Source: Candidatus Hermodarchaeota archaeon (lineage in GTDB: Archaea; Asgardarchaeota; Hermodarchaeia; Hermodarchaeales; Hermodarchaeaceae). From it: a stretch of DNA of 64,000 nucleotides. This document shows, one piece after another, positions 14,090 through 34,106 of the stretch. The stretch spans positions 1-64,000 of the forward strand of contig JAEOTO010000006.1 in assembly GCA_016839805.1 (NCBI GenBank), written 5' to 3'. The position numbers and the translations under genes are program-made. How positions within the stretch are numbered: the first letter of the stretch is position 1; every line of letters starts with the position of its first letter. A model generated the notes under the pieces. The model worked only from the letters and a program-made list of their open reading frames with translations, was not told the origin of the DNA and did not search any database.

Positions 14090-14194
14090 CTATGGTGGTG
14101 GAAGGCTGAGCAATAGTATTGCAACAATGGCACTACCAATAATCAATGACATGAAAAAAATAGCAAAAATAAGATTTCTATTCTTTCTCCTCAT
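14090..14194 (-). CDS. 34-aa single-TM microprotein (not in the ORF track)
   Basis: MRRKNRNLIFAIFFMSLIIGSAIVAILLLSLPPP*; ATG overlaps the ATPase stop (TGATG); basic N-terminus plus 24-residue hydrophobic stretch. Confidence 0.7.
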   Translation of the reverse strand: MRRKNRNLIFAIFFMSLIIGSAIVAILLLSLPPP

Positions 14195-15204
14195 CAGGAT
14201 TCACCATTTCTGGGGAGTATTCCCGTGCCCAATAGGCTGGAAAGCCGCTGTAAAGCAGGCAAACCTTGAATCTCGGTAGGAAATAAAGGAACTTCTGTGA
14301 TGATAAAGTCATCGTAAATATTGTGAATTTGAGCAATGTATTTTTCTTGCATAGCCTTACGTGACTTACAAAATTTGCAATCAGGCTTGTCAGGAAATAT
14401 CATATTAATGATTACATGGCTACTCGGTATTTCGAATTCATACAGAGTTTGTAACAGACGTTCTGTTTCCGAAACCGCCATGGCCTCAGGAATCATCACG
14501 ATAACAAAACTGGTGCGTGAAGGATCCCTCAACTCTCCACGCGATGCTGAAATGGTTTCTTTGAGTTTCTCCATTTGTTCAAGAGATTGATCTGGTTCCG
14601 AATCGCCACGTCCAAAAAGAGATTTCAAACGTCCAAACATATTACCGAAACGCATTCGAAGTTTGATAAGTTTACCAAAAAAACTATCCAACATTTCAGG
14701 GAGTCCTAAGAGTCGCAAAGTGTGACCAGTAGGGGCGGTATCAAACACAACCAAGTCGTATTCGCATTCTTGAATAAATTCAAGGACTTTAGAGAAAGCT
14801 AGCGCCTCATCCGCTCCGGGGGCAGTCATATCAGTGAAGTCCTCTAATCCCATCATTCCCCCTAAGGGCCCCATGTCTTCCGTTTCCTTTGATTGTGTCA
14901 TTTGCTGATATTGCTTAAAGGCTCTTCTAGGATCAATTTCCATGCCGTAGAGATTTTGCACTCCTTTAATGGGTATTACTTCTCCTCCACTTAGATCTTG
15001 AGCAAAACTATCACCTAGACTGTGTGCTGGGTCTGTACTAATGACAAGTGTTTCTCGGCCGTGTTCTGCAGCCCAAAGTGCTGATGCAGCAGCGTTACTT
15101 GTTTTGCCAACTCCTCCCTTGCCTCCAAAGAGAAGAAATCGGAGCGAATCCATTTCGAGTAATTTGATGAGGGTCATAAGAAGTGTAACTCCAATAGTAT
15201 GCAT
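14194..15204 (-). CDS. Get3/TRC40-type ArsA-family ATPase
   Basis: GKGGVGKT, STDPAH, PGADEA, DTAPTGHTLRLL, CKFC; single ATPase domain with Met/Phe-rich helical insert; probable start 15177. Confidence 0.9.
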   Translation of the reverse strand: MHTIGVTLLMTLIKLLEMDSLRFLLFGGKGGVGKTSNAAASALWAAEHGRETLVISTDPAHSLGDSFAQDLSGGEVIPIKGVQNLYGMEIDPRRAFKQYQQMTQSKETEDMGPLGGMMGLEDFTDMTAPGADEALAFSKVLEFIQECEYDLVVFDTAPTGHTLRLLGLPEMLDSFFGKLIKLRMRFGNMFGRLKSLFGRGDSEPDQSLEQMEKLKETISASRGELRDPSRTSFVIVMIPEAMAVSETERLLQTLYEFEIPSSHVIINMIFPDKPDCKFCKSRKAMQEKYIAQIHNIYDDFIITEVPLFPTEIQGLPALQRLSSLLGTGILPRNGES

Positions 15205-28743: not shown

Positions 28744-29952
28744 ATGAGCCATTTCATTGATGAAGATGAGATACGGCGTTTGAGTAGGCGTATTGCAGAA
28801 GAGTTCGAATCCACTTACGGCACTTTAGATGAAAAGGTTGCCCGTGTTCCAGATGATGCCGCAGCAGCGATTTCAGATGAATGTTGTGTTCACCTTGAAG
28901 TTGCTCGCGTAGCCTATCGTATCATGTTAGACGGTGTTATTCCTGAACCCAAATCGTCATGTAGAATATTAGTGCAGGAATTTGACCGTCGAGCTAAACA
29001 CGGAAGCCCTGTTCCCGAAATTAATACATATATGCGCGAAGTGGCTATTACTGAAGGGAAATGGATAGAATATCTATATGGTGAGTTAAACAAAGTTCTC
29101 CTAGCTGATCTTCGAAACTTAGCAAATCTTGAACGCACAATCGCTGATGAAATCGAACCCGCCAACGAGCGAGTGATTGCTGTGGTTGCTCAACGGCGGA
29201 AAATCGTGGAAGGTTATTTTACATCACTAATTCAGCGCTGGTTGCGGGATCATCGTGGCGCAAACATTGGGCACGCTGTACGTGCCATCACGGGGGGATT
29301 AACTAGTTCATTTGAATCCGACATTGACGATGCCATTAACGGAGCACGTGCATCTCTTCTCATTAAGCTTAGACGTTATGAAGAATTTCTCAGCCGAGAT
29401 GAAGAAGAGGAGGACGAATCTCGCCTAACAGAGAAAATTTTGGGCGATATTCGTGATTTAATCAAAGAAGTACAAGGATCCCTTGAAATTATATCACTGA
29501 ACACCGCAGGTGAAATATTAATAGAGGTTTCACCTCCTCCGCTAGAATCGATAGATGAAAAACCAAAATTTGGGTTTATCACTGCGCCATTTCCTGCACG
29601 ACCACAAATCGGACCGCCAATGCAGACACCTTTGGATTATCTTGAACGTGATATTTGGCTAGCCTCAATGAAACCTCCTGATGAAAGAACGCCATTTCTC
29701 CGGGCAAAAATAACAGCAGTAACCAATAACCTAATTGAACAAGGCACCCCATTGGACAAAATTGGTACCACGATCATATTCGATTTGGATAGCCGTTTTT
29801 CATGGACGCGATCGAAGAAAACCGGAGTACGAAGAGATTTAAGAGAAATCCGCGATTCGGCTGGCGAAGATTATCGAACACAAATAGAGACTTATGTATT
29901 AGAAAATATTCTTGCAAAAATCCCCGAACTACGCTCAAGTACCACTGATTAA
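28744..29952 (+). CDS. Hypothetical helical protein
   Basis: 402-aa ORF with GGAGTGA RBS-like sequence upstream; no recognised family. Confidence 0.8.
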   Translation: MSHFIDEDEIRRLSRRIAEEFESTYGTLDEKVARVPDDAAAAISDECCVHLEVARVAYRIMLDGVIPEPKSSCRILVQEFDRRAKHGSPVPEINTYMREVAITEGKWIEYLYGELNKVLLADLRNLANLERTIADEIEPANERVIAVVAQRRKIVEGYFTSLIQRWLRDHRGANIGHAVRAITGGLTSSFESDIDDAINGARASLLIKLRRYEEFLSRDEEEEDESRLTEKILGDIRDLIKEVQGSLEIISLNTAGEILIEVSPPPLESIDEKPKFGFITAPFPARPQIGPPMQTPLDYLERDIWLASMKPPDERTPFLRAKITAVTNNLIEQGTPLDKIGTTIIFDLDSRFSWTRSKKTGVRRDLREIRDSAGEDYRTQIETYVLENILAKIPELRSSTTD

Positions 29953-29970
29953 TAAAAAAGATGTGGCTTT

Positions 29971-30741
29971 ATGATTGAACAAAACCCGCCCCTCCTTTGG
30001 GTTTTAGATTATGTAATTCCAGACTTCAAAATACTTGGCGAAACTATCACAATGAAGGGTGAATTACTCATTGCTTCTCGCCAACTATTTAGTTTTCTCC
30101 AAGAAGAAATTGTGAGGTCAGCATTTATCGGTCCAGGCGTCATCAAAGGGCAGGTAATGCTTAAGGAAAAACCTGTTGATGTCGAATATCTTGTTGGCGC
30201 AGTAATCTTCGATCCTACTCAGATGCGCCCTCGTGAGCCGATTCCCGTTCTCGACATACTGAATCCAGAAATATTGGATCCATTAGAACAAGCCACGATT
30301 GAGCAAGTCCAAGAAATTTTCCGAACACTTGTTGTGAAGAAGGGGTCTGTTTCAGACTCAGGTCAGATTCTGACAATAACCACTGAAGGAGGGTTGCCTC
30401 GAACGTTAATTGCTGAAGAACACATGGCGGCTAAGAATATTACCCTCGTTTCAGGCATGAAGAAAGCCCGTTTTCTACTGGGCGGGCAGAAGAACCGTCT
30501 TTATTTACCTTTCAAAGAAGGATTACAACGAAATCGGTTTAGTGATGCAAGTAAAATCTGGACGTTTCGAATTGATACTAAAGAGTTTGAAGCATTTGAT
30601 CCAGCGAAATTCGGTGAGTGGATTATTATTGAAATGCAACCGGATCCTGCATCAGCTTCAAGTTCGAGTCAAGTTGTTGAATCGGAGTTCAACTCAATTC
30701 TTACCTATTTGATTGGCAATCAAAAGTATTTCATTTTTTGA
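29971..30741 (+). CDS. Hypothetical protein
   Basis: 256-aa ORF 18 nt downstream of the previous gene. Confidence 0.75.
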   Translation: MIEQNPPLLWVLDYVIPDFKILGETITMKGELLIASRQLFSFLQEEIVRSAFIGPGVIKGQVMLKEKPVDVEYLVGAVIFDPTQMRPREPIPVLDILNPEILDPLEQATIEQVQEIFRTLVVKKGSVSDSGQILTITTEGGLPRTLIAEEHMAAKNITLVSGMKKARFLLGGQKNRLYLPFKEGLQRNRFSDASKIWTFRIDTKEFEAFDPAKFGEWIIIEMQPDPASASSSSQVVESEFNSILTYLIGNQKYFIF

Positions 30742-30745
30742 GGAT

Positions 30746-33364
30746 CTAAGATCCTTGTAGCGGATGTTCTATGGCTTCAATTGCCTGAGTTGCGCTTTCT
30801 GCAAGTTCATAGCGGCCGATTACATCTGCAACTCGTTGAATCCCCTGGAGAATGTGAACTTGATTATCAAGAAAGCCAAAGATATCACCAGGGTAGATGA
30901 AGAGCTCATATTCTTTCAGAAATGTCGAGTTTATTTGCGAGGGTGTCATTCCTCGGTATCGCAAATCCAAGATAGCTTTGGAAAGATTCCAAATCCCACA
31001 ATCGCAAAATGGGCTTTCTTTGCAACGACAATTAAAGAAATTGACTGTCCATTTGCTGAATTGATTAAGGACCCATTGTGGTAGCCGTTTCAACCGGCGA
31101 CTACGCTTTGCGCTCATCAGATCAAGAACTGCACCTGCAAACAACCGGGTTGCAAATCGGGTTCGGAGTGCTCGTTCAATCTCGCTTTGAAGGCGTGGTG
31201 ATAGGTAGACGTTCCTAATGGGTTCAAGTTTGACTGAGAGGTCATCGGCACCATGATGGTAATACTCCTGAATCGCTGCGACGTTTGATGCAGAAAAATA
31301 TGAAATCGACGCAGCCCTCCCTAACTCAGTTGACATAATATTCTCACCATTTTGCGTTGCAAGATGATGGCGTTTTAGAAATTTCAATCCTTCATCGAAA
31401 GTTACCGTTCTTGAGAGAAGCCGTTGATACGAGTTGTCTAGACGTTTTCGTGAAATTTGGTTAAAACATGATAAAGTTGCAAGGAGTTGATCGACAGTTT
31501 GTTCAAATGTGGCTTCTGGTCGCACATCTTCAATTGGATTATTCAGTAAATCGAGGGCAACATCCTCTTCGGTTTTAGGTTCATCACCAAAATATCGTCG
31601 ACCAATCTCTGCCAATAACACCGCTTTTCCAGCGTCGTGTTTCCCGAGTCTTCCTGCCCTTCCAAGCATTTGCGTAAATTCGCCTACGCTTAGGGTTTTG
31701 GTTCCCATCATTAGGCTTTGGAAAATAACTGTACTGGCTGGAAAATCCACTCCTGCTGCTAAGGCTGCAGTAGTCACTACAACCGCAATTTTTCCATCCG
31801 CGAACGCTTCTTCGATTTTATGACGTTGGAGGTAAGTCATACCTGCATGGTATGCTCTGGCAGGAATTCTTTGCTTCTGAAGATCTGTGGCTATCGAATG
31901 AGTACTACGACGGGAATTCGTGAAACAAATTGTTTGCCCACGGAAACCATAGGAACTCTTCTGCCGATATTCAGCTTTGCTAATATCTGCAATCATCCGT
32001 AGTTTATCGGGTTCAGTAAGCACCATTATCAAATGGCGTTGTAAAGGTACGGGTCGACCTCGAAGGATAACAGGAACCAATTGTAGTTCCTGTGCTAACT
32101 CCTTAGGATTACCGACTGTGGCTGAAAGGGCTACAAGTTGAGCCTTGGGGAAAAGCGTTCGGATACGGGAAATCAATCCGTCAAGTTCCGGTCCTCGATC
32201 CTCATCTGCCACCATTTGAATCTCATCGATGACAACAACACCTACATCTCCGAACTGATCACCCTTACCTGATCGTAGTAAATAATCAAATCCTTCATAG
32301 CTTGCTACAATAATATCCGCATCGCTTACTTCGTCGTCAACAATTACTAGGGCTTCATCTCCCACATCAATCGAACTCATTCCTACACGAATCGCCACGC
32401 GTAATCCCAAAGCCTCGTATTTGTCGCGATATTCATGATATTTTTGATTCGCCAAGGCCACTAGCGGTGACAGGTAAATGTAGATTTTGCCCTGCATGGC
32501 TGCTTTCAGTCCAGCCAGCTCACCAACTAGCGATTTTCCACTAGTTGTATCCGAGACTGCGAGAATCGGTTTACTATCAAAAAGACCAGCTTTCACTGCT
32601 TTTGCCTGAATTGGTAGCAAAAACTCAATTCCATACCTAGCCAGGACTTGGGTGACTTTAGAGGGCAAAGGAAGTGATTTAATTGGAATCTTGGCTTCTG
32701 GCTCTTTCACTGCATGGACTTGGTCATATAGAGTCATTGCAGGATTTTGACTGGGTCGAAACTGGGAGGACAAAAAGGATGCTACTTTTTCAATAGAGCG
32801 TAATCTCCGAAGCATCGTATCGAGACTTCCGTAGGCTTTCTTGGATACCTGTACATCCATCGCCTGAAGCCGATTTGATAATTCGCCTGACGCACACTTG
32901 TAACATACTGGTTGCCCTTCCATTTGGAAGACCTGCTGACGACGTAACATCGTCAACCGTCCATCCGTAATACACGAAGTACACGCTCGTACAATGACTG
33001 GGTCCTTGACACCGAAATCCCGCAACATTCCCTTCAATTCTATAAGAAATGGAAACCGTGGGTACCGAGGAATCGTAATATATTCGGCACTTCGCAACCA
33101 ATTCACAAAGGTTCGTGGGTCAACCGGTCGAACTCCTCCCTTCTGCACAAACCACAATTTCTGTGGACGTAACCGTCCTTTTTTCATTTGAAATTGAACC
33201 CGAGCCCGTAAAATTGGGACTGACGACCGTTTTGGTCGAAATATCACAACAAATGCTGCCAGCTCTCGCTGCTTTTCAGGAAAAAGAGCCAACCCAAACG
33301 GAGGTTTCAACGGACGCATACCCAAACACAATATAATACGGCTTTCGCAAGGAACTCCTGACAA
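30746..33364 (-). CDS. Archaeal Ski2-like DEAD/DEAH helicase (DUF5814-type C-terminus)
   Basis: TTSGKS, PLVALANQKY, DEIQ, SAT, YHAG, QMLGRAGR, CRCKESPFCDCG; real start probably downstream of 33364. Confidence 0.9.
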   Translation of the reverse strand: MSGVPCESRIILCLGMRPLKPPFGLALFPEKQRELAAFVVIFRPKRSSVPILRARVQFQMKKGRLRPQKLWFVQKGGVRPVDPRTFVNWLRSAEYITIPRYPRFPFLIELKGMLRDFGVKDPVIVRACTSCITDGRLTMLRRQQVFQMEGQPVCYKCASGELSNRLQAMDVQVSKKAYGSLDTMLRRLRSIEKVASFLSSQFRPSQNPAMTLYDQVHAVKEPEAKIPIKSLPLPSKVTQVLARYGIEFLLPIQAKAVKAGLFDSKPILAVSDTTSGKSLVGELAGLKAAMQGKIYIYLSPLVALANQKYHEYRDKYEALGLRVAIRVGMSSIDVGDEALVIVDDEVSDADIIVASYEGFDYLLRSGKGDQFGDVGVVVIDEIQMVADEDRGPELDGLISRIRTLFPKAQLVALSATVGNPKELAQELQLVPVILRGRPVPLQRHLIMVLTEPDKLRMIADISKAEYRQKSSYGFRGQTICFTNSRRSTHSIATDLQKQRIPARAYHAGMTYLQRHKIEEAFADGKIAVVVTTAALAAGVDFPASTVIFQSLMMGTKTLSVGEFTQMLGRAGRLGKHDAGKAVLLAEIGRRYFGDEPKTEEDVALDLLNNPIEDVRPEATFEQTVDQLLATLSCFNQISRKRLDNSYQRLLSRTVTFDEGLKFLKRHHLATQNGENIMSTELGRAASISYFSASNVAAIQEYYHHGADDLSVKLEPIRNVYLSPRLQSEIERALRTRFATRLFAGAVLDLMSAKRSRRLKRLPQWVLNQFSKWTVNFFNCRCKESPFCDCGIWNLSKAILDLRYRGMTPSQINSTFLKEYELFIYPGDIFGFLDNQVHILQGIQRVADVIGRYELAESATQAIEAIEHPLQGS

Positions 33365-33410: not shown

Positions 33411-34106
33411 ATGCCATCAATTGAAATCTTCCCCGGAGTGCTATCCCTTATTCTCAGCAGGGCAGCCCGTGCAGGACGGACTGAAATTGGTGGCTTCCTC
33501 TTCGGAAAACTCCAACGTAATCGGCTCCTCATTACTGGTGCGACCTTCCCACAACAACACGGAACACGTACCCATGTAACCATAAACGATCTAGACATGG
33601 CTCTCCTTGCTGAAGAACTTGCCCAACGGGGTACTGGCGAAGTCATCATCGGCTGGTGGCATACCCACCCAGGATTGGGAGCGGGTTTTATGTCTAGCAC
33701 TGATATTTCGACGCAATTACGATACCAGGCGTTTTTCCCTGAAGCAGTTGCAGTAGTGATTGATCCTCTGAGATTTTCTGAATCTATGGATTTGGCAGAT
33801 TTGGATCTTCATGTGTATACTGTGGAGAAGCGGAAGGAGCGCGATTTAGAGTATATGTATGTGCAAGATCCAGAGGAAGTGATTCCCGATCTTTATGGTA
33901 TAATGATGACGCTAGAAGAGCCTGAGCACATGTTGTTTGAGGACACTTGGTTTGAGAAGATGTTGCGTGATGTGTTTGGGGAAGAGGTGACTACACCGGT
34001 GTTTACCTATCGATTAGGCGATTTTATGGAAGCAGCTGTGGTTATTGGAGCGATGATTTTTCTTGGTATCTTTGTCGCAATTGCACTGATGGGATTGGTT
34101 GTGTAG
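33411..34106 (+). CDS. JAMM/MPN+ metalloprotease (Rpn11/CSN5-like) with C-terminal TM helix
   Basis: EIGG, GWWHTHPG...S..D, AVAVVIDP; ends AAVVIGAMIFLGIFVAIALMGLVV. Confidence 0.88.
   Translation: MPSIEIFPGVLSLILSRAARAGRTEIGGFLFGKLQRNRLLITGATFPQQHGTRTHVTINDLDMALLAEELAQRGTGEVIIGWWHTHPGLGAGFMSSTDISTQLRYQAFFPEAVAVVIDPLRFSESMDLADLDLHVYTVEKRKERDLEYMYVQDPEEVIPDLYGIMMTLEEPEHMLFEDTWFEKMLRDVFGEEVTTPVFTYRLGDFMEAAVVIGAMIFLGIFVAIALMGLVV

What the first reader, a model, noticed from the sequence alone, without database searches (positions are those of the whole stretch)
33411..34106. Tail-anchored Rpn11/CSN5-like JAMM isopeptidase
Seen: intact E..HxH..SxxD with Rpn11-like context (GWWHTHPGLG, AVAVVIDP) and a 24-residue hydrophobic helix at the extreme C-terminus, with no signal peptide. 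Known: characterised JAMM enzymes (Rpn11, CSN5, AMSH, HvJAMM1) are soluble. Inference: a membrane-tethered deubiquitinase/desampylase, possibly an AMSH-like role in Asgard ubiquitin-ESCRT sorting, and a plausible Get3 client.
Basis: partly seen in the sequence, partly recalled or inferred. Interest (0 to 1): 0.7.

Follow-up and report, generated by a model that had tools for sequence, protein, structure and literature searches.

The report
Tail-anchored Rpn11-like deubiquitinase, Asgard archaeon
This Asgard (Hermod-group) archaeon's only Rpn11-type ubiquitin-removing zinc protease ends in a conserved membrane anchor. Most Asgard classes share this layout and no paper I could search describes it, which suggests that ubiquitin is taken off proteins at the inner face of the membrane, although no activity has been measured.

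Summary
Window 33411-34106 (+) encodes a 231-aa protein with an intact JAMM/MPN+ domain (Pfam JAB E 1.8e-12). Its best solved relative is the Caldiarchaeum Rpn11 homologue, a proven ubiquitin protease (E 2e-26; Z 22, rmsd 1.8 A). E25, H84, H86, S95 and D98 are invariant.

After a low-confidence linker the protein ends in an uncharged hydrophobic helix (residues about 202-231, Kyte-Doolittle 2.84). All 55 close homologues keep this tail. So do distant orthologues labelled Jord, Frey, Baldr, Odin, Hel, Kari and some Heimdall, although the tail sequence itself is not conserved.

On a tree of the catalytic core alone, the anchored forms group together. They stand apart from the soluble Aigarchaeota type and from the soluble Loki/Hod paralogues.

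The genome has ubiquitin (ending in GG), E1, E2, a RING protein, ESCRT-I/II/III, Vps4 and Get3, but only this one Rpn11-type JAMM.

The most likely reading is a cytosol-facing, tail-anchored ubiquitin isopeptidase. A specific AMSH-like ESCRT role and Get3 insertion remain inference. I found no paper on the layout. This scan has already found the same family on other Asgard genomes. New here are the old gene neighbourhood (two unknown genes) and the co-occurrence with ubiquitin and E2.

The parts
33411..34106 (+). Gene for the 231-aa tail-anchored Rpn11-like JAMM protein (P0001), stop codon included
   Evidence: ORF. 57 homologues at E <= 0.001, of which 55 are close (52-95% identity). Present in 18/18 other genomes of the same GTDB family.
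33411..33860 (+). MPN/JAMM catalytic core, residues 1-150
   Evidence: Pfam JAB residues 4-110. phmmer against CsRpn11 6fjv gives E 2.1e-26 over residues 4-141. AF2 pLDDT is mostly 87-96. VIA-align against 6fnn_A: Z 22.1, rmsd 1.8 A, 145 aligned.
33483..33485 (+). Codon of E25, the catalytic glutamate of the JAMM motif
   Evidence: Invariant in the 35-sequence alignment of close and distant anchored homologues.
33660..33704 (+). Zinc-binding and catalytic motif H84-T-H86-PGLGAGFM-S95-ST-D98
   Evidence: H84, H86, S95 and D98 are invariant in alignments A1 and A2. They align with the HSHPGLDVFLSPTD motif of CsRpn11.
33870..33911 (+). Helix 154-167, equivalent to helix H4 of CsRpn11
   Evidence: AF2 secondary structure. 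The model aligns to full-length CsRpn11 6fju_B up to residue 176. H4 is described in PMC6043591.
33912..34013 (+). Flexible linker (pLDDT < 50 at 171-178) and juxtamembrane helix carrying the family-specific motif EDTWFEKMLR (residues 177-186; helix at 180-189)
   Evidence: AF2. W180, F181 and E182 are nearly invariant in the close family only and are not conserved in distant orthologues.
34014..34103 (+). C-terminal transmembrane tail anchor, residues about 202-231, ending at the stop codon
   Evidence: Kyte-Doolittle 2.84. No charged residues in the last 22 aa in 54/55 close homologues. Hydrophobicity is kept but sequence is not (12% identity to distant tails). Predicted as a helix at pLDDT 79-92.
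28744..30741 (+). Context, not shown to be functional partners: two unknown genes (402 aa, P0207; 256 aa, P0208). In Odin and Jord/Frey they sit directly upstream of the anchored JAMM on the same strand.
   Evidence: Synteny. No Pfam match, no Atlas hit and no fold match. The 256-aa family also occurs in genomes that lack E2 and the JAMM.
14194..15204 (-). Context: Get3/ArsA-type ATPase, a candidate insertion factor for tail-anchored proteins (inference only)
   Evidence: Pfam ArsA_ATPase E 4.5e-96. Earlier scan finding e1-5503352.

Best explanation
The gene encodes a zinc-dependent JAMM/MPN+ isopeptidase of the archaeal Rpn11-like type. It is held in the cytoplasmic membrane by a single C-terminal transmembrane helix (a tail anchor), so its catalytic domain faces the cytoplasm on a flexible linker of about 50 residues. 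It is the only Rpn11-type enzyme in a genome that has a complete eukaryote-like ubiquitin set (ubiquitin, E1, E2, RING) and whose ubiquitin is made ready to use (it ends in Gly-Gly). Its main job is therefore most likely to cut ubiquitin off conjugated proteins at or near the inner face of the membrane, which recycles ubiquitin and reverses tagging.

Shown here: the fold, the intact catalytic residues, the conserved hydrophobic tail, the phyletic spread, and the presence of the ubiquitin system. Inferred: zinc binding and activity, ubiquitin as the substrate, membrane insertion and topology, the insertion route (Get3), and which conjugates are targeted.
For: Catalytic domain:
- Pfam JAB E 1.8e-12.
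- The nearest solved relative is CsRpn11, at E 2e-26 and 36% identity over the core, ahead of AMSH, Rpn11 and CSN5 at about 1e-13. CsRpn11 cleaves ubiquitin precursor and conjugates in vitro (PMC6043591).
- Foldseek E 1e-15 and VIA Z 22.1 at rmsd 1.8 A.
- E25, H84, H86, S95 and D98 are invariant across 35 close and distant homologues.

Anchor:
- Kyte-Doolittle 2.84 over residues 209-227, ending at the stop codon.
- In the AF2 secondary structure it is a separate long helix after a linker with pLDDT < 50.
- Structural matches cover residues 1-176 only.
- The tail is present in all 55 close homologues, in 14 of 21 sampled loci across the phylum, and in MAGs labelled Hermod, Jord, Frey, Baldr, Odin, Hel, Kari and Heimdall.
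- Tails share about 12% identity yet stay uncharged.
- On a tree built from the core alone, all 23 anchored rows fall into one group of 25, needing 2 changes against about 20 for shuffled labels.

Link to ubiquitin:
- The genome has Ub (78 aa, ending ...TEGG-stop), E2, RING, UEV-Vps23, Vps28, EAP30, Vps25 and Vps4 on contig C47, E1 on C47/C49, and two Snf7 genes on C29.
- There is only one PF01398 hit in the genome.
- Ub and E2 are present in all 6 anchored-JAMM genomes checked.
- Five 97-99% complete genomes of a family that lacks the JAMM also lack E2.
Against: - No activity, zinc binding, localisation or topology has been measured for any member.
- The gene is not in the ubiquitin-ESCRT cluster. 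Its conserved neighbours are two unknown genes, a helicase and a Roadblock protein.
- The genome is 86.7% complete, so 'only Rpn11-type JAMM' could be an assembly gap.
- Two Prok-JAB proteins elsewhere might also act on ubiquitin.
- The co-occurrence test covers few genomes, and they are related to one another.
- The tree is a quick one, and the key branch has SH-aLRT 83, which is not strong.
Confidence: 0.68

Rival explanations
1. Narrower version: the enzyme is the functional counterpart of AMSH/Doa4. It removes ubiquitin from membrane cargo just before ESCRT-III/Vps4 sorting or scission, and being fixed in the membrane replaces recruitment through a MIT domain.
For: The genome has a full ubiquitin plus ESCRT-I/II/III plus Vps4 set. 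The enzyme is membrane-fixed and is the only Rpn11-type JAMM. AMSH catalytic domains are among the best structural matches (Z 16.6-17.6).
Against: There is no genomic linkage to the ESCRT cluster, which lies on another contig. Pfam finds no MIT or other ESCRT-binding domain. The core is closer to CsRpn11, Rpn11 and CSN5 than to AMSH. Loki and Hod genomes, which also have ubiquitin-ESCRT genes according to the literature, have no anchored form.
Confidence: 0.25
2. The substrate is not ubiquitin. The enzyme cleaves another small modifier (SAMP/Urm1/MoaD-like) or a peptide, possibly together with the two unknown neighbouring genes.
For: The gene is not in the ubiquitin operon. The order orf402-orf256-JAMM is kept in Hermod, Baldr, Odin and Jord/Frey, with overlapping or abutting genes in Odin and Jord. 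A genome of the Jord/Frey family (G116) has a second, soluble JAMM beside its ubiquitin and E2 genes.
Against: The closest characterised enzyme is a ubiquitin protease. Odin genomes and this genome have no other Rpn11-type JAMM to serve their ubiquitin systems. The orf256 family is present in 83 of 89 genomes of families that lack the JAMM, and five near-complete ones also lack E2, so that pair does not depend on the JAMM. The JAMM co-occurs with Ub and E2 in 6 of 6 genomes checked.
Confidence: 0.12
3. The hydrophobic C-terminus is not a membrane span. It is a helix buried in a protein assembly, as the C-terminal helices of eukaryotic Rpn11 are buried in the helical bundle of the proteasome lid.
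For: Eukaryotic Rpn11 and CSN5 use C-terminal helices for complex assembly (stated in PMC6043591). Loose alignments of the whole model to proteasome-bound Rpn11 do span residues 1-231.
Against: Those alignments have rmsd 14-17 A, so they are not meaningful. 22-30 residues with no charge and Kyte-Doolittle 2.6-3.2 are far more hydrophobic than bundle helices. The sequence is not conserved between lineages while the hydrophobicity and the position at the very end are. No Rpn8-like partner or second PF01398 gene exists in the genome.
Confidence: 0.05
4. The protein is a catalytically dead scaffold (an MPN-minus-like pseudoenzyme) that binds ubiquitin at the membrane.
For: The H-to-S spacer is one residue longer than the canonical H-x-H-x7-S-x2-D.
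Against: All five catalytic and zinc-binding residues are invariant over large distances. Both spacer lengths occur within the same close family. The modelled core superposes on active CsRpn11 at 1.8 A.
Confidence: 0.03

Closest known systems
CsRpn11, the Rpn11 homologue of Candidatus Caldiarchaeum subterraneum (PDB 6FJU, 6FJV, 6FNN, 6FNO; PMC6043591)
   Same: Same JAMM core (36% identity, E 2e-26, Z 22 at rmsd 1.8 A). Same catalytic residues, an alignable Ins-1 region, and a C-terminal helix H4 after the core.
   Different: CsRpn11 is a 202-aa soluble protein encoded inside a ubiquitin/E1/E2/RING operon, and it matures a ubiquitin precursor. This protein has a transmembrane tail, lies outside the ubiquitin cluster, and its ubiquitin needs no trimming. 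On the core tree the two types are separate groups.
Eukaryotic Rpn11 (PSMD14) and CSN5
   Same: MPN+ fold and JAMM motif in a GW(W/Y)H(T/S)HPG context. phmmer E about 5e-13. Z 19-21.
   Different: The eukaryotic enzymes are soluble subunits of PCI complexes, are paired with an inactive MPN partner (Rpn8, CSN6), and have an Ins-2 insertion and C-terminal bundle helices. Here there is a single PF01398 gene in the genome and a membrane anchor.
AMSH / AMSH-LP / Sst2 (ESCRT-associated JAMM deubiquitinases)
   Same: A JAMM isopeptidase that acts at a membrane. E about 3e-13, Z 16.6-17.6.
   Different: AMSH is soluble and is recruited through MIT and STAM-binding regions. No such domain is detected here. 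Membrane attachment would be permanent and built in.
Membrane-anchored deubiquitinases of the USP class (USP19 at the ER, USP30 and yeast Ubp16 at the mitochondrial outer membrane); from my own knowledge, not tested here
   Same: The same idea: a deubiquitinase fixed to a membrane by one helix, with the catalytic domain in the cytosol.
   Different: An unrelated fold and mechanism (cysteine proteases), and eukaryotic organelle membranes. I know of no JAMM-class example.
Archaeal JAMM1 desampylases (Haloferax HvJAMM1; Pyrococcus PfJAMM1, PDB 5LD9/5LDA)
   Same: A minimal JAMM core (Z 16.7-16.8).
   Different: Much weaker sequence match (NCBIfam desampylase E 0.07). They are small soluble proteins that act on SAMPs. 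A separate 148-aa protein of that type exists in this genome.

Membership tests
JAMM/MPN+ metalloproteases (Pfam JAB, PF01398) | MPN fold | tested here: met
   Pfam 47.6 bits against a cut-off of 22.5. Foldseek E 1e-15. VIA Z 22.1, rmsd 1.8 A.
JAMM/MPN+ metalloproteases (Pfam JAB, PF01398) | Catalytic motif E ... H-x-H ... S-x-x-D | tested here: met
   E25, H84, H86, S95 and D98 are present and invariant. The spacer is 8 residues rather than 7.
JAMM/MPN+ metalloproteases (Pfam JAB, PF01398) | Zinc-dependent isopeptidase activity | not testable with these tools
   Needs an enzyme assay.
Archaeal Rpn11-like group (CsRpn11 type, PMC6043591) | Closest sequence relatives are CsRpn11 and the Asgard JAMMs rather than JAMM1/JAMM2 | tested here: met
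   6fjv E 2e-26 against NCBIfam desampylase E 0.07.
Archaeal Rpn11-like group (CsRpn11 type, PMC6043591) | Encoded in an operon with ubiquitin, E1, E2 and RING | tested here: not met
   The ubiquitin cluster is on contigs C47/C49; the gene is on C26 among unrelated genes.
Archaeal Rpn11-like group (CsRpn11 type, PMC6043591) | Same clade as CsRpn11 on a tree of the core | tested here: not met
   Anchored forms and the Aigarchaeota forms fall on opposite sides of the quick tree; support is weak (SH-aLRT 75-83).
Tail-anchored membrane proteins | A single hydrophobic span within about 30 residues of the C-terminus | tested here: met
   Residues 202-231 of 231; Kyte-Doolittle 2.84; it is the only such segment.
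Tail-anchored membrane proteins | No N-terminal signal or anchor sequence | tested here: met
   The N-terminus scores Kyte-Doolittle 1.23 and is the first strand and helix of the fold at pLDDT about 90. No dedicated signal-peptide predictor was run.
Tail-anchored membrane proteins | Post-translational insertion, for example by Get3 | not testable with these tools
   A Get3-type ATPase is encoded at window 14194-15204. Its presence is not evidence that this protein is a client.
AMSH family | N-terminal MIT domain or ESCRT-binding region | tested here: not met
   Pfam finds only JAB families in the protein. The protein starts directly with the MPN core.
AMSH family | Ins-2 zinc site and Lys63-chain specificity | not tested
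   The residues were not mapped, and specificity needs an assay.
Proteasome-lid Rpn11 proper | Paired inactive MPN partner (Rpn8) and PCI lid subunits | tested here: not met
   Only one PF01398 hit in the genome, which is 86.7% complete. PCI subunits were not searched.

The most novel reading that the evidence does not exclude
Membrane attachment is the original state of the Asgard, and perhaps the whole archaeal, Rpn11-like deubiquitinase. A single tail-anchored enzyme served the early ubiquitin system at the membrane. The soluble, multi-paralogue Rpn11/CSN5/AMSH-type enzymes of Loki, Hod and eukaryotes arose later by loss of the anchor. The soluble Aigarchaeota forms may still bind membranes peripherally through a cationic amphipathic C-terminal helix. 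On this reading, ubiquitin removal at membranes, as in ESCRT cargo sorting, would predate eukaryotes.
Probability: 0.2. Interest if true: 0.75.

Novelty: new variant of a known kind. Interest (0 to 1): 0.55.

Why it matters
Asgard archaea are the closest known relatives of eukaryotes, and their ubiquitin and ESCRT genes are used to reconstruct how eukaryotic membrane trafficking began.

The published surveys I could read list the deubiquitinase only as a gene family, and the one study of its structure trimmed the ends before comparing sequences. A conserved membrane anchor would therefore have gone unnoticed.

If the only Rpn11-type enzyme of many Asgard lineages sits in the membrane, ubiquitin signalling in these cells is at least partly a membrane process. 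That gives a concrete, cheap experiment: localisation, plus cleavage of the organism's own ubiquitin. It also gives a defined candidate client for archaeal Get3.

Tried and rejected
I obtained genomic context through the genome search, the fetch from genomes and the search for related loci instead.
- Four literature searches found no paper that describes a membrane-anchored JAMM. The terms were Asgard+JAMM+transmembrane; Asgard+ubiquitin+ESCRT+deubiquitin; JAMM+tail-anchored; and archaea+JAMM+membrane-bound+desampylase. Subscription journals are not covered.
- I considered the two conserved upstream genes as functional partners and examined them. They have no Pfam match even at E 10 and no usable Atlas hit. 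The 256-aa protein was modelled at pLDDT 73, and that model has no Foldseek match below E 0.1 and no VIA match above Z 3. Their family occurs widely in genomes that lack the JAMM, so I do not count them as part of the system.
- I considered whether the 169-aa and 217-aa homologues lack the tail. They do not. They are shortened at the N-terminus (later start or contig end) and keep the tail.
- I looked for an anchored paralogue in Loki, Hod and Heimdall-type complete genomes. None of 26 JAMM genes in 5 genomes has a tail.
Full report
**The observation**

Window 33411..34106 (+) is an open frame of 231 codons with an ATG start. An AGGAGG lies 16-21 nt upstream of the start.

Pfam assigns residues 4-110 to JAB/MPN (PF01398, E 1.8e-12, 47.6 bits against a cut-off of 22.5), with a weaker Prok-JAB match. 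NCBIfam gives only marginal matches, and its desampylase model scores E 0.07.

A hydropathy scan shows one outstanding segment. The best 19-residue Kyte-Doolittle window scores 2.84 at residues 209-227. Windows of 1.9 or more cover residues 202-231, so the segment runs to the last residue. Nothing else in the protein exceeds about 1.2.

**The catalytic domain**

Among solved structures the best sequence match by a wide margin is the Rpn11 homologue of Candidatus Caldiarchaeum subterraneum (6fjv/6fju, E about 2e-26, residues 4-141). AMSH, yeast and human Rpn11, and CSN5 follow at about 1e-13.

An AlphaFold2 model built on 31 homologues has mean pLDDT 84. It has a confident MPN core (residues 1-150) and a helix at 154-167. 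A segment at 171-178 falls below pLDDT 50. A short helix at 180-189 follows, and then one long helix at 195-230.

Foldseek and VIA-align again put the Caldiarchaeum enzyme first (E 1e-15; Z 22.1, rmsd 1.8 A, 145 residues). Rpn11 follows at Z 19-21, CSN5 at Z about 18-20, BRCC36 at Z about 18-19, and AMSH at Z 16.6-17.6. Meaningful alignments stop at residue about 176. The few that span residues 1-231 have rmsd 14-17 A.

E25, H84, H86, S95 and D98 are invariant in an alignment of 35 close and distant homologues. The spacer between H86 and S95 is 8 residues here and 7 in CsRpn11, and both lengths occur inside the close family.

CsRpn11 has been shown to cleave ubiquitin precursor and conjugates. 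It is a 202-aa soluble protein whose C-terminal helices are dispensable for catalysis (PMC6043591).

**The tail**

All 55 close homologues (52-95% identity) end in the same kind of segment, 0-5 residues from the C-terminus. They carry names such as 'Mov34/MPN/PAD-1 family protein' or 'proteasome lid subunit RPN8/RPN11'. The shorter entries of 169 and 217 aa are cut at the N-terminus, not at the tail.

Fifty-four of the 55 have no charged residue in the last 22 positions, while 24% of the remaining residues are charged.

An exhaustive HMMER search of 1.8 billion representative proteins found many relatives of 219-314 aa at 30-42% identity, and most of them again end in a hydrophobic tail. That holds for 40 of the 148 listed representatives examined and for most of the top 50. 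Their tails share only about 12% identity with this one when aligned from the end, yet 20 of 30 have no charge and 9 have a single charge.

The conservation pattern is what a lipid-embedded anchor shows and a specific protein interface does not. Hydrophobicity, length and terminal position are kept while the sequence is free to change.

With no N-terminal signal, since residues 1-21 belong to the fold, the protein fits the tail-anchored class with its catalytic domain in the cytoplasm. I could not run a dedicated TM predictor or inspect the model's coordinates.

**Spread and descent**

The close family is present in 18 of 18 other genomes of the same GTDB family. There the gene order is fixed: helicase (-), JAMM (+), Roadblock (-), Orc/Cdc6-like AAA (+).

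Record titles from the species-representative genomes label the close family Hermodarchaeota, with some entries labelled Thor- or Promethearchaeota. They show tail-anchored orthologues in MAGs labelled Jordarchaeia, Freyarchaeota, Baldrarchaeota, Odinarchaeota, Helarchaeota, Kariarchaeota and several Heimdallarchaeota. One is labelled Bathyarchaeia and one carries a bacterial label; these two may be mis-binned.

The Aigarchaeota/Nitrososphaerota homologues (the CsRpn11 type) have no such tail. In five complete or nearly complete genomes of the large-genome families, none of 26 JAMM genes has one. Going by the record labels of the matching soluble forms, these families are of the Loki, Hod and Heimdall type.

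I built a quick maximum-likelihood tree from the catalytic core only (90 residues before to 75 after the H-x-H motif, so the tail plays no part). All 23 anchored sequences fall into one group of 25. The label needs 2 changes on the tree, against about 20 for shuffled labels. The branch has SH-aLRT 83, which is moderate.

A third architecture forms the neighbouring group, in Thermoplasmata and Bathyarchaeia: an MPN core, a TM helix at about 170-220, and then a 200-400-residue C-terminal region.

**The ubiquitin system of this genome**

The assembly has 2.31 Mb in 50 contigs and is 86.7% complete. It has a single PF01398 hit, which is this gene.

Contig C47 (6.7 kb) carries these genes:
- the start of an E1;
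- an E2 (UQ_con, E 1e-34);
- a 78-aa ubiquitin (PF00240, E 7e-12) that ends ...TRTEGG-stop;
- a small RING protein;
- a UEV-Vps23 protein, Vps28, an EAP30/Vps22-36 protein and Vps25;
- a MIT-AAA Vps4.

The rest of the E1 is at the start of C49, and two Snf7 genes are on C29. Because the ubiquitin already ends in Gly-Gly, precursor trimming, which is the best documented job of CsRpn11, is not needed here. Deconjugation is the expected role.

Two other JAB-domain proteins exist:
- a 148-aa Prok-JAB protein that weakly resembles desampylases;
- a Prok-JAB gene that overlaps a ThiF-type E1.

They are of the prokaryotic type, but I cannot exclude that they act on ubiquitin.

As a small phyletic test, ubiquitin and E2 are present in all six anchored-JAMM genomes I checked: this one, one genome of the Jord/Frey family, two Odin genomes and two from other families. 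In the two Odin genomes the anchored form is the only hit to this protein.

Conversely, in the three related families f31-f33 only 4 of 89 genomes match this protein. In one of them, f31, five genomes that are 97-99% complete have no E2 hit and only borderline JAB hits. The sample is small and the genomes are related, so this is supporting evidence, not proof.

**The neighbourhood**

The immediate neighbours are a DEAD-box helicase with DUF5814, a Roadblock/LC7 protein, an Orc/Cdc6-like AAA protein, endonuclease dU and a radical-SAM enzyme. None points to ubiquitin.

Just beyond the helicase lie two genes with no family assignment, of 402 and 256 aa. In Odin and Jord/Frey genomes their orthologues overlap each other and are followed directly by the anchored JAMM on the same strand. 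In Baldr one gene intervenes. In the Hermod family the helicase is inserted on the other strand.

The arrangement looked like a three-gene module, so I examined the pair. They have no Pfam match at E 10 and no Atlas lead. A model of the 256-aa protein (pLDDT 73) has no structural match above Z 3.

The 256-aa family is, however, present in 125 of 400 genomes of the phylum. That count includes 83 of 89 genomes of the families f31-f33, which almost entirely lack the JAMM, and f31, which lacks E2 in the five genomes checked. I therefore treat the adjacency as old conserved gene order, not as evidence of a shared function.

**How it most likely works**

Shown:
- an intact Rpn11-like JAMM core;
- a conserved terminal hydrophobic helix behind a flexible linker;
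- inheritance of this design across many Asgard lineages;
- a complete ubiquitin system in the same genome.

Inferred:
- The protein is inserted after translation with its tail through the cytoplasmic membrane. A Get3-type ATPase is encoded at 14194-15204 of the same window (Pfam ArsA_ATPase, E 4.5e-96), but nothing shows this protein is a client.
- The catalytic domain reaches about 50 residues from the membrane surface.
- It removes ubiquitin from conjugates it can reach there.

I cannot tell whether the targets are ESCRT cargo (the AMSH-like idea), membrane proteins headed for degradation, or all conjugates.

**Comparison with what is known**

The protein is a member of the JAMM/MPN+ superfamily and is nearest to the archaeal Rpn11-like enzymes. 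It differs from the characterised member, CsRpn11, in being membrane-anchored, in lying outside the ubiquitin operon, and in forming a separate group on the core tree.

It is not an AMSH, because it has no MIT region. It is not a lid-type Rpn11, because no Rpn8-like partner was found.

Membrane-fixed deubiquitinases are known in eukaryotes only in the unrelated USP class (my own knowledge). The surveys of Asgard ubiquitin-ESCRT genes that I read mention the deubiquitinase only as a searched family (PMC9192718, PMC10936438). The CsRpn11 study trimmed the termini before clustering. I found no paper on the anchor.

**Earlier work in this scan**

The same family has been reported and followed up on other Asgard genomes of Hermod, Odin, Hel and Heimdall groups, with the same conclusion. 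My results agree with those notes; I tested the claims again on this genome.

This report adds three things:
- the old gene neighbourhood and its dissociation from the JAMM;
- the small co-occurrence test with ubiquitin and E2;
- a lead that the 'soluble' Aigarchaeota forms end in a cationic amphipathic helix.

**Verdict**

This is a real and conserved feature, and a new variant of a known enzyme kind. It is of moderate to good interest for people who study the origin of eukaryotic ubiquitin and membrane trafficking. Activity, localisation and substrates are all untested.

Noticed in passing
window 28744-29952 (+) and 29971-30741 (+): Two adjacent genes of unknown function (402 aa and 256 aa). 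They have no Pfam or Atlas match, and the modelled 256-aa protein (pLDDT 73) has no structural match above Z 3. The pair lies next to SAM synthetase in Hermod, Baldr, Odin and Jord/Frey. The 256-aa family is single-copy in nearly all of the 125 of 400 Asgard genomes that have it, and it is absent from the Loki/Heimdall-type families.
   Followed up: partly
loci L107-L131 and L120 (C-termini of the JAMM ORFs listed): The 'soluble' CsRpn11-type JAMMs of Aigarchaeota/Nitrososphaerota, and one from Sif, end in a short cationic amphipathic helix (for example ...VKFFSKAKKFFSK). In 10 of 16 it is the window with the highest hydrophobic moment in the whole protein, with net charge +2 to +5. It resembles MinD/FtsA-type membrane-targeting sequences, so these enzymes may bind membranes peripherally.
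   Followed up: partly
L171 (= genome contig C47, 1-6686) and the start of contig C49: A compact ubiquitin-ESCRT cluster: E1 fragment, E2, ubiquitin ending in GG, RING, a coiled-coil protein, UEV-Vps23, Vps28, a 97-aa ORF, EAP30, Vps25 and Vps4. The E1 gene is split across the ends of contigs C47 and C49, which share the sequence ERLAKSTVIVAGIGALG..., so the two contigs probably join.
   Followed up: partly
L135, L138, L141, L144, L165 (Thermoplasmata and Bathyarchaeia MAGs): A third architecture: an N-terminal JAMM core, one TM helix at about residues 170-220, then a C-terminal region of 200-400 residues. These group next to the tail-anchored clade on the core tree.
   Followed up: no
genomes G312, G314, G320, G335, G387 (GTDB family f31 of the same phylum): Five genomes that are 97-99% complete have no UQ_con (E2) hit and only borderline JAB hits. 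This Asgard family appears to lack the eukaryote-like ubiquitin system altogether.
   Followed up: partly
L173:1410-2904 (= genome contig C10, about 87.9-89.4 kb): A Prok-JAB gene (211 aa) overlaps a ThiF-type E1 gene (317 aa). This is a prokaryote-type JAB-E1 pair, separate from the eukaryote-like ubiquitin cluster, with weak similarity to an anti-phage Cap2/Cap3-like model.
   Followed up: no
window 30746-33364 (-): An 872-aa DEAD-box helicase with a C-terminal DUF5814 domain sits, on the opposite strand, between the unknown gene pair and the JAMM gene. This is seen only in the Hermod family, so it looks like an insertion into an older gene order.
   Followed up: no
L102 and L104: Asgard-like tail-anchored JAMM genes occur on contigs labelled 'Candidatus Deferrimicrobium' (a bacterium) and 'Bathyarchaeia'. 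This is probably mis-binning, or possibly gene transfer.
   Followed up: no
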